A DNA stretch of 64,000 bases from Giardia intestinalis (Eukaryota), in the NCBI GenBank assembly GCA_000002435.2, contig CM018791.1; one strand, given 5' to 3'. The translations under genes were made by a program, and so were the position numbers. Below are positions 2,146-8,607 of the stretch, piece by piece (position 1 is the first letter of the stretch; each line of letters opens with the position of its first letter). The notes below the pieces were generated by a model. It was given only the letters and a program-made list of their open reading frames with translations. It searched no databases and was not told where the DNA came from.

Positions 2146-5100
2146 ATGTTACTAGTACTTCTCGCAAGTTGTATAGCTGTACAAGCCGCGGTGTGTGCGC
2201 CCGCGCTGATCGGCGCCGGGTGTGCGACATGCACAGGAGAGAACGACGGACAGACGTGCCTTACGTGTAATCCCCAAGAGAACAAGGTGCAGCCTGGCGG
2301 AAAGAAATGCGGAGTCGGCTGCCCGGCGAACTCCACCCCTAAGGAGAGCGTGTGCGAGTGCAACGGAGGATACAGGCCGAACGCCCAGGGCCAGTGCGAG
2401 CAAGACCCCGCCGCGGTGTGTGCGCCCGCGCTGATCGGCGCCGGGTGTGCGACATGCACAGGAGAGAACGACGGACAGACGTGCCTTACGTGTAATCCCC
2501 AAGAGAACAAGGTGCAGCCTGGCGGAAAGAAATGCGGAGTCGGCTGCCCGGCGAACTCCACCCCTAAGGAGAGCGTGTGCGAGTGCAACGGAGGATACAG
2601 GCCGAACGCCCAGGGCCAGTGCGAGCAAGACCCCGCCGCGGTGTGTGCGCCCGCGCTGATCGGCGCCGGGTGTGCGACATGCACAGGAGAGAACGACGGA
2701 CAGACGTGCCTTACGTGTAATCCCCAAGAGAACAAGGTGCAGCCTGGCGGAAAGAAATGCGGAGTCGGCTGCCCGGCGAACTCCACCCCTAAGGAGAGCG
2801 TGTGCGAGTGCAACGGAGGATACAGGCCGAACGCCCAGGGCCAGTGCGAGCAAGACCCCGCCGCGGTGTGTGCGCCCGCGCTGATCGGCGCCGGGTGTGC
2901 GACATGCACAGGAGAGAACGACGGACAGACGTGCCTTACGTGTAATCCCCAAGAGAACAAGGTGCAGCCTGGCGGAAAGAAATGCGGAGTCGGCTGCCCG
3001 GCGAACTCCACCCCTAAGGAGAGCGTGTGCGAGTGCAACGGAGGATACAGGCCGAACGCCCAGGGCCAGTGCGAGCAAGACCCCGCCGCGGTGTGTGCGC
3101 CCGCGCTGATCGGCGCCGGGTGTGCGACATGCACAGGAGAGAACGACGGACAGACGTGCCTTACGTGTAATCCCCAAGAGAACAAGGTGCAGCCTGGCGG
3201 AAAGAAATGCGGAGTCGGCTGCCCGGCGAACTCCACCCCTAAGGAGAGCGTGTGCGAGTGCAACGGAGGATACAGGCCGAACGCCCAGGGCCAGTGCGAG
3301 CAAGACCCCGCCGCGGTGTGTGCGCCCGCGCTGATCGGCGCCGGGTGTGCGACATGCACAGGAGAGAACGACGGACAGACGTGCCTTACGTGTAATCCCC
3401 AAGAGAACAAGGTGCAGCCTGGCGGAAAGAAATGCGGAGTCGGCTGCCCGGCGAACTCCACCCCTAAGGAGAGCGTGTGCGAGTGCAACGGAGGATACAG
3501 GCCGAACGCCCAGGGCCAGTGCGAGCAAGACCCCGCCGCGGTGTGTGCGCCCGCGCTGATCGGCGCCGGGTGTGCGACATGCACAGGAGAGAACGACGGA
3601 CAGACGTGCCTTACGTGTAATCCCCAAGAGAACAAGGTGCAGCCTGGCGGAAAGAAATGCGGAGTCGGCTGCCCGGCGAACTCCACCCCTAAGGAGAGCG
3701 TGTGCGAGTGCAACGGAGGATACAGGCCGAACGCCCAGGGCCAGTGCGAGCAAGACCCCGCCGCGGTGTGTGCGCCCGCGCTGATCGGCGCCGGGTGTGC
3801 GACATGCACAGGAGAGAACGACGGACAGACGTGCCTTACGTGTAATCCCCAAGAGAACAAGGTGCAGCCTGGCGGAAAGAAATGCGGAGTCGGCTGCCCG
3901 GCGAACTCCACCCCTAAGGAGAGCGTGTGCGAGTGCAACGGAGGATACAGGCCGAACGCCCAGGGCCAGTGCGAGCAAGACCCCGCCGCGGTGTGTGCGC
4001 CCGCGCTGATCGGCGCCGGGTGTGCGACATGCACAGGAGAGAACGACGGACAGACGTGCCTTACGTGTAATCCCCAAGAGAACAAGGTGCAGCCTGGCGG
4101 AAAGAAATGCGGAGTCGGCTGCCCGGCGAACTCCACCCCTAAGGAGAGCGTGTGCGAGTGCAACGGAGGATACAGGCCGAACGCCCAGGGCCAGTGCGAG
4201 CAAGACCCCGCCGCGGTGTGTGCGCCCGCGCTGATCGGCGCCGGGTGTGCGACATGCACAGGAGAGAACGACGGACAGACGTGCCTTACGTGTAATCCCC
4301 AAGAGAACAAGGTGCAGCCTGGCGGAAAGAAATGCGGAGTCGGCTGCCCGGCGAACTCCACCCCTAAGGAGAGCGTGTGCGAGTGCAACGGAGGATACAG
4401 GCCGAACGCCCAGGGCCAGTGCGAGCAAGACCCCGCCGCGGTGTGTGCGCCCGCGCTGATCGGCGCCGGGTGTGCGACATGCACAGGAGAGAACGACGGA
4501 CAGACGTGCCTTACGTGTAATCCCCAAGAGAACAAGGTGCAGCCTGGCGGAAAGAAATGCGGAGTCGGCTGCCCGGCGAACTCCACCCCTAAGGAGAGCG
4601 TGTGCGAGTGCAACGGAGGATACAGGCCGAACGCCCAGGGCCAGTGCGAGCAAGACCCCGCCGCGGTGTGTGCGCCCGCGCTGATCGGCGCCGGGTGTGC
4701 GACATGCACAGGAGAGAACGACGGACAGACGTGCCTTACGTGTAATCCCCAAGAGAACAAGGTGCAGCCTGGCGGAAAGAAATGCGGAGTCGGCTGCCCG
4801 GCGAACTCCACCCCTAAGGAGAGCGTGTGCGAGTGCAACGGAGGATACAGGCCGAACGCCCAGGGCCAGTGCGAGCAAGACCCCGCCGCGGTGTGTGCGC
4901 CCGCGCTGATCGGCGCCGGGTGTGCGACATGCACAGGAGAGAACGACGGACAGACGTGCCTTACGTGTAATCCCCAAGAGAACAAGGTGCAGCCTGGCGG
5001 AAAGAAATGCGGAGTCGGCTGCCCGGCGAACTCCACCCCTAAGGAGAGCGTGTGCGAGTGCAACGGAGGATACAGGCCGAACGCCCAGGGCCAGTGCGAG

Positions 5101-8100: not shown

Positions 8101-8607
8101 CAGACGTGCCTTACGTGTAATCCCCAAGAGAACAAGGTGCAGCCTGGCGGAAAGAAATGCGGAGTCGGCTGCCCGGCGAACTCCACCCCTAAGGAGAGCG
8201 TGTGCGAGTGCAACGGAGGATACAGGCCGAACGCCCAGGGCCAGTGCGAGCAAGACCCCGCCGCGGTGTGTGCGCCCGCGCTGATCGGCGCCGGGTGTGC
8301 GACATGCACAGGAGAGAACGACGGACAGACGTGCCTTACGTGTAATCCCCAAGAGAACAAGGTGCAGCCTGGCGGAAAGAAATGCGGAGTCGGCTGCCCG
8401 GCGAACTCCACCCCTAAGGAGAGCGTGTGCGAGTGCAACGGAGGATACAGGCCGAACGCCCAGGGCCAGTGCGAGCCTTCTAATACTAATAAGAGTAGCG
8501 GTCTTTCTACCGGCGCCATAGCAGGCATCGCTGTGGCTGCTGTCATCGTTGTAGGAGGGCTCGTCGGCTTCCTTTGCTGGTGGTTCATATGTAGGGGGAA
8601 AGCGTAG
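2146..8607 (+). CDS. Variant-specific surface protein (VSP), 2153 aa: signal peptide, 28 identical 75-aa Cys-rich tandem modules (two CXXC motifs and an NST sequon per module), TM helix, CRGKA tail
   Basis: ATG at 2146 preceded by AT-rich 'caattaattacag'. N-terminal hydrophobic [14 protein letters not shown]. C-terminus ...[27 protein letters not shown] is the invariant Giardia VSP tail. The VSP extended poly(A) signal follows the stop. 10 Cys per 75-aa unit. Confidence 0.93.
   Translation: [2153 protein letters not shown]
2176..8475 (+). repeat. Tandem array of ~28 x 225-bp units, all copies apparently identical at nucleotide level, in frame within the VSP gene
   Basis: Period-225 recurrence of identical embedded ORFs at 2222, 2447, ... 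8297 (28 copies). The sequence lines repeat verbatim. The last unit diverges at 8476 (cagtgcgagccttctaat vs cagtgcgagcaagacccc). Confidence 0.95.

What the first reader, a model, noticed from the sequence alone, without database searches (positions are those of the whole stretch)
2176..8475. 28 nucleotide-identical 225-bp units inside a VSP (75-aa, 10-Cys module) versus a single unit in the paralog
All visible copies are identical down to the base, with no synonymous drift. That implies very recent expansion or strong concerted homogenisation, or assembler inflation/collapse of the array.

Each unit carries CATC and CLTC (CXXC) motifs plus an NST sequon, so copy number directly scales the Zn/metal-binding Cys-rich surface. 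The inverted paralog has exactly one unit, so the array can apparently contract to the minimal architecture or expand from it.

Tandem-repeat VSPs are known (vspA6/CRP170-type), but an identical 28-copy versus 1-copy inverted pair at one locus is unusual.
Basis: seen in the sequence. Interest (0 to 1): 0.7.

Follow-up and report, generated by a model that had tools for sequence, protein, structure and literature searches.

The report
Unequal inverted Giardia VSP gene pair
Two tail-to-tail copies of one Giardia surface-antigen (VSP) gene match almost perfectly, except that one carries 28 identical copies of a 75-amino-acid cysteine-rich module and the other carries one; both genes are already annotated in the public reference genome, and repeat-bearing VSPs and inverted VSP pairs are both known, so this is an instructive but ordinary case.

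Summary
Window 2185-8476 holds 27.96 copies of a 225-bp unit with no mismatch or indel.

They lie inside a + strand ORF (2146-8607, 2153 aa) that is a textbook Giardia variant-specific surface protein: signal peptide, 28 ten-Cys modules, TM helix, CRGKA tail, CAATGTT initiator, AGTAAA poly(A) signal. A convergent copy (11788-11402, 128 aa) has one module.

The window is Giardia intestinalis WB C6, from the 2020 PacBio reference. Both proteins are already in GenBank as adjacent "VSP" entries. The short one is vsp156/GL50803_102178.

The arms show no difference over 3122 nt. They then drop to about 81% identity and to no similarity about 563 nt past the stop. That gradient points to gene conversion between the arms, not just a recent duplication.

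ORF spacing (2794 bp) and the divergence point match the roughly 20 known inverted VSP pairs. Four other giant WB VSPs also carry perfectly identical arrays of the same module type.

The likely cause is in-register unequal recombination or slippage within a conversion-homogenised inverted pair.

What appears undescribed is the 28:1 asymmetry within a pair. An error in copy number or placement cannot be excluded without the reads. Interest is low to moderate.

The parts
1..2145 (+). Left outer arm: 5' flank of the long VSP. It is the inverted repeat of 11789-13933 and runs off the window start.
   Evidence: One search reports arms 1-2401 and 11533-13933. One search finds one mismatch only, at window 6 versus 13928. 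GC is 0.47 and there is no ORF of 150 aa or more.
2144..2150 (+). VSP initiator element CAATGTT spanning the ATG. The twin lies at 11784-11790 on the - strand.
   Evidence: Adam 2010 lists vsp156 with Inr CAATGTT.
2146..8607 (+). Long VSP ORF: 2153 aa, 214.9 kDa, 283 Cys (13.1%), 56 CXXC. GenBank KAE8302825.1 / XP_037901808.1.
2146..2187 (+). Signal peptide [14 protein letters not shown].
   Evidence: It is conserved in the DH and P15 orthologs.
2185..8476 (+). Perfect tandem array: 27.96 copies of 225 bp, giving 28 ten-Cys modules of 75 aa. GC is 0.65.
2402..2409 (+). First instance of the 8-nt inter-unit linker AAGACCCC (codons of QDP). It is absent from the one-unit gene and recurs every 225 nt.
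8477..8607 (+). Conserved VSP C-terminus ([43 protein letters not shown]) plus stop codon.
   Evidence: Pfam PF03302.
8620..8625 (+). AGTAAA polyadenylation signal 13 nt after the stop. The twin lies at 11384-11389 on the - strand.
8608..9170 (+). Left inner arm: duplicated 3' flank. It is identical to the right copy up to 8986, has mismatches at 8987 and 9033, and is about 81% identical with indels from 9038 to about 9170.
9171..10824 (.). Unique central spacer: GC 0.62, no recognisable coding sequence. The stretch 9562-10824 is collinear with the 3' flank of the single DH gene, read from the right copy.
10825..11401 (-). Right inner arm: 3' flank of the short VSP.
11402..11788 (-). Short VSP ORF: 128 aa, 12.8 kDa, 13 Cys, 2 CXXC. 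This is vsp156 / GL50803_102178, GenBank KAE8302826.1 / XP_001704930.1.
11533..11749 (-). The single 217-nt module copy, identical to every array unit.
11789..13933 (-). Right outer arm: 5' flank of the short VSP. Homology to DH continues to 13998 and then stops, which marks a synteny break.

Best explanation
This is a convergent (tail-to-tail) inverted pair of one variant-specific surface protein gene of Giardia intestinalis WB.

**Shown**
- Both copies have the same promoter/initiator, signal peptide, module sequence, membrane anchor and poly(A) signal.
- They differ only in module number, 28 versus 1.
- The module is a self-contained 75-aa unit whose ten Cys are invariant across single-module VSPs.

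**Inferred mechanism**
1. The pair belongs to the known class of inverted VSP pairs. Repeated intrachromosomal gene conversion between the arms keeps its core identical. The core runs from at least 2.1 kb upstream, through the ORF, to about 380 nt downstream. The edges have drifted to about 81% identity.
2. In one copy a founding in-frame duplication of the module created an 8-nt linker. In-register unequal sister-chromatid or allelic exchange, or replication slippage, between identical 225-bp units then expanded the array. The same process keeps the units identical (concerted evolution).
3. Because 225 is a multiple of 3, every length variant stays in frame. The locus can therefore give the same antigen at sizes from 13 to about 215 kDa, multiplying the same epitopes and CXXC sites.
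4. The one-module copy is either the unexpanded ancestral form or an array collapsed back to one unit. Both routes yield exactly the observed sequence.
For: **Array and gene anatomy:**

**Identity of the genes:** both proteins are in GenBank with adjacent accessions on the 1,973,847-bp WB contig. The short one matches vsp156 (128 aa, 13 Cys, 2 CXXC, CAATGTT).

**Fit to the inverted-pair class**
- ORF-to-ORF distance is 2794 bp. Published tail-to-tail pairs span 2393-3222 bp (PMC2996952) and 2526-2813 bp (PMC7000408).
- 3' identity ends about 380-563 nt past the stop, against 318-559 nt in PMC2996952.

**Gene conversion:** there are no differences in 3122 nt of core, against 150/185 identity in the adjoining edge. 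The same flank differs by roughly 20% between WB and DH.

**Concerted evolution as a class property:** P0122, P0123, P0124 and P0125 have perfect arrays of 26, 16, 11 and 4+19 modules of the same ten-Cys type.

**One module as a real, conserved architecture**
- DH, P15 and ENA orthologs carry one module and no direct repeats.
- All ten Cys are invariant in 16 single-module VSPs.
- The module is modelled at pLDDT 78-86.

**Precedent:** vspA6 (about 23 x 195 bp) versus vspA6-S1 (one copy), and allelic copy-number variation in vspA6 and vspC5 (PMC2996952).

**A second n-versus-1 relation:** P0122 (26 units) versus P0012 (1 unit, 98-99% identical, from two samples).
Against: - No reads were available, so neither the number 28 nor the assignment of the long and short forms to the two arms is independently verified.
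- A conversion tract crossing the array should also equalise copy number. The 28:1 state therefore requires that expansion or collapse post-dates the last spanning conversion, or that tracts stop at the array.
- The DH and P15 single-unit state comes from short-read assemblies that could collapse arrays.
- DH shows no inverted partner within 4.7 kb downstream; a reverse-transcriptase element lies there instead. The age of the pair is therefore unclear.
- Expression, surface display and metal binding were not tested.
Confidence: 0.75

Rival explanations
1. Assembly or polishing artefact. The true array has a different unit number. Alternatively, both arms carry arrays (or both carry one unit) and the assembler mis-assigned reads between arms that share at least 2.1 kb of identical flank. 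Perfect unit identity could also be partly produced by consensus polishing of multi-mapping reads.
For: - The long gene is absent from the 2007 Sanger assembly and appears only in the 2020 PacBio assembly (XP_037901808.1 versus XP_001704930.1).
- Adam 2010 warns that repeat numbers are approximate and that inverted pairs broke contigs.
- No independent sequence with the inter-unit junction was found in the protein collection or in the metagenome scan.
- The flanks of the two copies are identical, so only reads reaching the unique spacer can place the array.
Against: - PacBio RS II gave 200x coverage with read N50 of 12.7 kb and 10% of reads over 20 kb. BridgeMapper found no misassemblies (PMC7000408). 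An anchored read needs only about 7.5 kb.
- The structure has a 1.65-kb unique spacer and the canonical pair geometry, so it is not a fold-back chimera.
- The one-unit ORF was seen independently in Sanger data as GL50803_102178.
- Four other arrays in the same assembly behave the same way.
- The negative metagenome scans are uninformative, because the unit-to-tail junction was also absent.
Confidence: 0.12
2. A very recent one-off inverted duplication with no ongoing conversion. A one-unit gene was copied in inverted orientation, and the array then grew in one copy so fast that no point mutation has yet occurred anywhere.
For: - There are no differences over 3122 nt.
- DH lacks the partner copy in the assembled 4.7 kb downstream, which is compatible with a WB/A1-lineage event.
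- Adam 2010 favoured recent duplication for identical pairs.
Against: - The step from 0% to about 19% divergence within about 50 nt at 9033-9170 is not expected from a single recent copy event. The indel-rich homology there is partly shared with DH by each arm in turn. The step could be explained if the copy landed on an older diverged homolog, but that is itself a conversion.
- About 20 pairs in the genome are all identical. That is hard to explain by coincidentally recent duplications.
Confidence: 0.1
3. The long and short forms are allelic or population length variants in the tetraploid trophozoite. Unit number at either arm is heterogeneous in the culture, and the reference shows one arbitrary haplotype.
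For: - Allelic repeat-number variation is documented for vspA6 and vspC5 (PMC2996952).
- Regions around VSPs show higher allelic variation in mapped reads (PMC7000408).
Against: - Overall allelic heterozygosity in WB is about 0.03%.
- A consensus from 200x reads would not normally give a clean 28-unit array if lengths were broadly heterogeneous.
- This rival is compatible with the main explanation and does not exclude it.
Confidence: 0.03

Closest known systems
Identical inverted VSP pairs of G. intestinalis WB (vsp1267 prototype; 14 pairs in Adam et al. 2010, 19-20 pairs in Xu et al. 2020 and the 2022 preprint)
   Same: Convergent orientation. ORF spacing is 2794 bp, against the published 2.4-3.2 kb. 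The flanks are identical up to an abrupt divergence a few hundred nt past the stop. The spacer is GC-rich and non-coding.
   Different: The two ORFs are not identical in length (2153 versus 128 aa). The pair is therefore missing from Xu's Table 2, and the preprint states that no duplicated VSPs have repeats.
vspA6 (CRP170) and vspA6-S1
   Same: A giant VSP with more than 20 in-frame tandem repeats, plus a near-identical paralog carrying about one repeat. Allelic copy-number variation is documented.
   Different: The gene and unit differ (195 bp / 65 aa against 225 bp / 75 aa). In vspA6 about 1.3 kb of non-repeat ectodomain follows the array, whereas here the array is the entire ectodomain. vspA6 and vspA6-S1 show scattered substitutions and are not described as an inverted pair at one locus.
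vspC5 and other whole-ectodomain repeat VSPs; WB proteins P0122-P0125 found here
   Same: The architecture is signal peptide + n identical Cys-rich modules + conserved TM/CRGKA tail. P0122-P0125 use the same ten-Cys module type of 74-80 aa (35-48% identity), with perfectly identical units.
   Different: The module sequences differ. No one-module partner in the same genome was identified for them here. P0122's one-unit counterpart, P0012, comes from other samples.
Single-module clade III VSPs (vsp156, vsp46, DH DHA2_151917, P15 EFO60887)
   Same: The short copy is vsp156 itself. Orthologs keep all ten Cys, the signal peptide and the tail.
   Different: The long copy multiplies that module 28-fold.

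Membership tests
Giardia variant-specific surface protein (VSP, Pfam PF03302) | Conserved C-terminal TM helix ending in CRGKA. | tested here: met
   Both ORFs end in ...[17 protein letters not shown]. PF03302 scores 67.6 bits against a 31.4 cut-off for the 128-aa protein.
Giardia variant-specific surface protein (VSP, Pfam PF03302) | N-terminal signal peptide and a Cys-rich (about 10-13%) ectodomain with CXXC motifs. | tested here: met
   Signal peptide is [14 protein letters not shown]. Cys content is 13.1% with 56 CXXC in the long form, and 10.2% with 2 CXXC in the short form. No signal-peptide predictor was run.
Giardia variant-specific surface protein (VSP, Pfam PF03302) | Initiator CAATGTT/TAATGTT at the start codon and an AGTAAA-type poly(A) signal just after the stop. 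| tested here: met
   CAATGTT at 2144 and AGTAAA at 8620, with mirror copies at 11784 and 11384.
Giardia variant-specific surface protein (VSP, Pfam PF03302) | Surface display and mutually exclusive, switching expression. | not testable with these tools
   No expression or localisation data for either gene were found. A search for the gene number found no Giardia VSP paper that mentions it.
Identical inverted VSP pair (Adam 2010 / Xu 2020) | [quoted passage not shown] | tested here: met
   The copies are convergent with 2794 bp between ORFs. The spacer ORFs have no Pfam hit.
Identical inverted VSP pair (Adam 2010 / Xu 2020) | Flanks nearly identical up to an abrupt divergence point (318-559 nt 3' of the stop in tail-to-tail pairs). 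| tested here: met
   Identical for 379 nt, two mismatches up to 430 nt, about 81% identity to about 563 nt, then no similarity.
Identical inverted VSP pair (Adam 2010 / Xu 2020) | The two ORFs are identical. | tested here: not met
   2153 versus 128 aa. Every shared base is identical, but module number is 28 versus 1.
Tandem-repeat VSP (30-36 genes in WB) | In-frame tandem repeats of 105-516 bp within the ectodomain. | tested here: met
   27.96 copies of 225 bp, in frame.
vspA6 / CRP170 specifically | A 195-bp (65-aa) repeat followed by about 1.3 kb of non-repeat ectodomain. | tested here: not met
   The period is 225 bp and the array abuts the conserved tail. The vspA6 description is from PMC2996952. 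No direct sequence comparison with vspA6 was made.

The most novel reading that the evidence does not exclude
The inverted pair could be a built-in length-variation device. Conversion and flip-flop recombination between the arms, together with unequal exchange in the array, would let a clonal lineage toggle one antigen between a minimal 13-kDa form and forms up to about 215 kDa. This would change coat thickness and epitope valency without switching VSP gene. The convergent identical copies could also supply antisense/dsRNA that couples their silencing. The 28:1 state would then be one snapshot of a dynamic, selectable polymorphism and not an accident.
Probability: 0.07. Interest if true: 0.6.

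Novelty: new member of a known kind. Interest (0 to 1): 0.3.

Why it matters
Repeat number sets the size and epitope valency of a Giardia coat protein. Inverted identical VSP pairs are a recognised feature of the genome whose origin is not settled.

This pair is a natural experiment. Its core is identical and its edges are diverged, which argues that the pairs are held identical by gene conversion. The 28:1 difference shows that array length changes faster than, or escapes, that homogenisation.

There is also a practical point. Pairs defined by equal ORF length miss this locus. In addition, the antisense strand carries an even longer open frame (2193 aa) that could mislead gene callers.

None of this changes the current view of VSP biology.

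Tried and rejected
1. **Exact-protein look-ups.** Look-ups of the two WB proteins to fetch sequence left of the window found nothing on record. The outer end of the left arm could therefore not be seen.
2. **Metagenome scans.** Scans for the inter-unit junction and for the unit-to-tail junction both gave 0 hits. The collection lacks this gene, so the result is uninformative.
3. 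**Search with the 2153-aa protein.** Only four other WB giant VSPs were found, at 35-43% identity. No multi-unit relative turned up in another isolate.
4. **Structure.**
   - Sequence search of the PDB with two units gave no hit.
   - An AlphaFold model of the 128-aa protein has mean pLDDT 70.
   - Foldseek against the PDB gave no match with E below 0.7. The weak hits were all EGF or furin-like Cys-rich regions, so fold assignment is inconclusive.
   - Pfam finds no family in a three-module fragment without the tail.
5. **VSP pseudogene in the spacer.** There was no Pfam hit in seven spacer ORFs and no significant tblastn hit in the WB spacer. DH shows only a weak relic (E 0.17, L001 11713-12090).
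6. **Fold-back chimera at a contig end.** This was rejected because of the 1.65-kb unique spacer and the canonical pair geometry. There are no telomere repeats in the window.
7. **Membership in vspA6.** This was rejected on period and architecture.
8. **Literature.** A search for the gene number found no Giardia VSP paper that mentions it. Mowatt 1994 (PMC186261) is not held.

Full report
**1. The observation**

Tandem Repeats Finder reports one major array in the window: 2185..8476, period 225, 28.0 copies, 100% matches, no indels. A base-by-base check shows perfect periodicity from 2185 to 8476, which is 27.96 copies: 27 full identical 225-mers and a last copy of 217 nt.

Three of the six frames are open through the unit. 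This is why ORFs of 2193 and 2066 aa appear on the minus strand.

The biologically meaningful frame is + 2146..8607 (2153 aa). It consists of:
- signal peptide [14 protein letters not shown];
- 28 modules of 75 aa, each with ten Cys, CATC and CLTC motifs and one NST sequon;
- the tail [43 protein letters not shown].

The start codon sits in CAATGTT (2144-2150). AGTAAA lies 13 nt after the stop, at 8620-8625.

The 'paralog' is real. The minus-strand ORF 11788..11402 (128 aa) has the same signal peptide, one module and the same tail. Its 217-nt module is identical to every array unit.

**2. Where the window comes from and what is already annotated**

The 128-aa protein matches a database entry at 100% identity: VSP of Giardia intestinalis WB clone C6, on a 1,973,847-bp contig.

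An exact look-up shows that both proteins are public and adjacent:
- KAE8302825.1 / XP_037901808.1 (2153 aa);
- KAE8302826.1 / XP_001704930.1 (128 aa).

The short one fits vsp156 = GL50803_102178 in Adam et al. 2010: 128 aa, 12.8 kDa, 13 Cys, 2 CXXC, Inr CAATGTT, clade III, with no pair or repeat flag (my count is).

The long one has only a 2020-era accession. It therefore entered the record with the PacBio reference of Xu et al. 2020. That assembly used PacBio RS II at 200x, read N50 of 12.7 kb, and HGAP3 plus Quiver (PMC7000408).

**3. Anatomy of the locus**

The two genes are convergent, with 2794 bp between the ORFs.

- **Outer arms.** Window 1-2401 pairs with 13933-11533. There is one mismatch, at position 6. 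The arm runs off the window start.
- **Inner arms.** 8260-9037 pairs with 11749-10972, with mismatches only at 8987 and 9033.
- **Core.** Outside the copy-number difference there is no difference at all over 3122 nt (7-2401 and 8260-8986).
- **Edge.** Beyond 9037 the arms align at 150/185 with indels, up to about 9170 / 10825. After that similarity is at background level.
- **Spacer.** The unique centre (9171-10824) has GC 0.62. None of its ORFs has a Pfam hit.

**4. Comparison with other isolates**

Contigs carrying the orthologs were retrieved:
- DH (assemblage A2): L001, 127-aa protein;
- an ENA sample: L002, protein identical to DH;
- P15 (assemblage E): L003, 128-aa protein.

None of them has a direct repeat.

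DH L001 7791-12153 is collinear with window 13998 down to 9562. That covers the right (one-unit) copy, its 3' flank and 1.26 kb of the spacer. The three-way alignment shows the left copy leaving this collinearity at about 9170. The duplicated segment therefore ends about 563 nt past the stop.

Upstream, the DH and P15 genes (kinase, a 347-aa protein, an aminotransferase) are nowhere in the window. WB-DH homology stops at 13998. The locus therefore sits at a synteny break. Which arm kept the ancestral 5' neighbours cannot be decided without sequence left of the window.

Downstream of the DH gene lies a reverse-transcriptase ORF and then the contig end. A partner copy beyond that element cannot be excluded.

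**5. Rates**

| Comparison | Region | dN | dS |
|---|---|---|---|
| WB vs DH | module | 0.134 | 0.167 |
| WB vs DH | tail | 0.021 | 0.50 |

The non-Cys positions of the module are evolving fast, yet the 29 WB copies of the module show no change in 28 x 217 nt.

In the 3' flank, WB and DH differ at roughly one site in five, while the two WB arms are identical. The step from 0% to about 19% divergence at the arm edge is not what a single recent duplication would leave. It is the pattern expected when the core of an older inverted duplication is repeatedly homogenised by gene conversion. It would equally arise if a conversion overwrote an older diverged partner.

**6. The module and the class**

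All ten module Cys are invariant in an alignment of 16 single-module VSPs. The C-terminal half ([15 protein letters not shown]) fits the EGF-type pattern C-x-C-x2-G-Y-x7-C; this rests on my own knowledge of the PROSITE EGF_2 pattern.

An AlphaFold model built with that alignment gives pLDDT 78-86 over the module. Foldseek against the PDB finds nothing significant. The weak hits are uniformly EGF or furin-like Cys-rich regions, so the fold call is inconclusive.

Searching with the long protein retrieved four other giant WB VSPs. Each is a perfect array of the same ten-Cys module type:

| Protein | Copies | Module length |
|---|---|---|
| P0122 | 25.96 | 74 aa |
| P0123 | 16.3 | 74 aa |
| P0124 | 11.2 | 75 aa |
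| P0125 | 4.2 + 18.7 | 80 aa |

P0122 has a one-module counterpart, P0012, at 98-99% identity in two independent samples.

Perfect arrays, and n-versus-1 relations, are therefore properties of a class and not of this locus alone.

**7. Direction of change**

Each array unit contains 8 nt (AAGACCCC, first at 2402-2409) that are absent from the one-unit gene. Expansion from one unit therefore needed a founding junction with a small filler. That junction encodes the linker QDP before AAV.

An in-register collapse of the array, by contrast, reproduces the one-unit gene exactly. The single-unit orthologs favour one module as the ancestral state. Those assemblies are short-read, however, so the inference is hedged.

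**8. Comparison with the literature**

Adam et al. 2010 (PMC2996952) describe:
- 30 tandem-repeat VSPs with units of 105-516 bp;
- 14 identical inverted pairs separated by 2-4 kb, with 3' divergence points of 318-559 nt;
- vspA6 (about 23 x 195 bp) versus vspA6-S1 (one copy);
- allelic copy-number variation;
- a warning that repeat numbers may be condensed by assembly.

Xu et al. 2020 list 19 equal-size pairs, with convergent pairs 2526-2813 bp apart. This pair is not in their table.

A 2022 preprint counts 20 identical pairs and 36 repeat VSPs, and states that 'no duplicated VSPs have repeats' (10.1101/2022.03.07.483299).

The geometry here matches the pair class, and the array matches the repeat class. 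What I did not find described is a pair whose members differ only by 28 versus 1 modules.

**9. Verdict**

The object is a known kind of gene in a known kind of arrangement, and it is already annotated.

The best explanation is unequal in-register recombination or slippage within one arm of a conversion-homogenised inverted VSP pair (confidence 0.75).

The main rival is an error in copy number or arm assignment in the assembly (0.12). It can only be settled with the raw long reads.

Interest is 0.3.

Noticed in passing
window 2124-8705 (-) and 2152-8352 (-): Antisense ORFs of 2193 and 2066 aa run through the array, because the 225-nt unit has no stop in three of six frames. The first is longer than the true VSP ORF and could mislead gene callers.
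   Followed up: yes
window 13934-14000; L001 7791; L003 6544: Homology of the right arm to DH and P15 stops at about 13998. The kinase, 347-aa protein and aminotransferase genes that flank the orthologs are nowhere in the 64-kb window. The locus therefore lies at a synteny breakpoint.
   Followed up: partly
L003 8104-8433 and 9126-9455: The P15 contig ends in a 330-nt perfect inverted copy of a segment upstream of its own VSP. The copy starts 8 nt before the VSP stop codon. It is either a real rearrangement or an assembly chimera at the contig end.
   Followed up: no
L001 11713-12420 and 12570-14456: Downstream of the DH ortholog lie a weak VSP-like relic (E 0.17), a 68%-identical direct copy of the VSP 3' flank, and then a reverse-transcriptase ORF (RVT_1). 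The relic region corresponds to the WB spacer.
   Followed up: partly
proteins P0122 and P0012; loci L004, L005: A 26-module WB VSP (1983 aa) has a one-module counterpart (133 aa, 98-99% identical) in two independent ENA samples. This is a second n-versus-1 relation for this module type.
   Followed up: partly
window 19360-41709 (-): A single 7449-aa ORF carries dynein heavy chain domains (DHC_N2, AAA_6, MT stalk, AAA_9, Dynein_C). By my own recollection dynein heavy chains are usually about 4500 aa, so this one is unusually long. The first ~2600 aa have no Pfam hit.
   Followed up: partly
window 41891-50083 (+): A 2730-aa ORF with no Pfam match at E of 0.001 or better.
   Followed up: no
window 50104-51705 (-) and 62210-63988 (-): Two EGF/teneurin-type Cys-rich proteins. 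The first has a VSP-like transmembrane tail (39% identity to the VSP tail, E 2.6e-9). It is therefore probably one of the high-cysteine membrane proteins related to VSPs.
   Followed up: no
window 9171-10824: The spacer between the two VSPs is as GC-rich (0.62) as VSP coding sequence, while the 5' flanks are at 0.47. It has no detectable coding similarity.
   Followed up: partly
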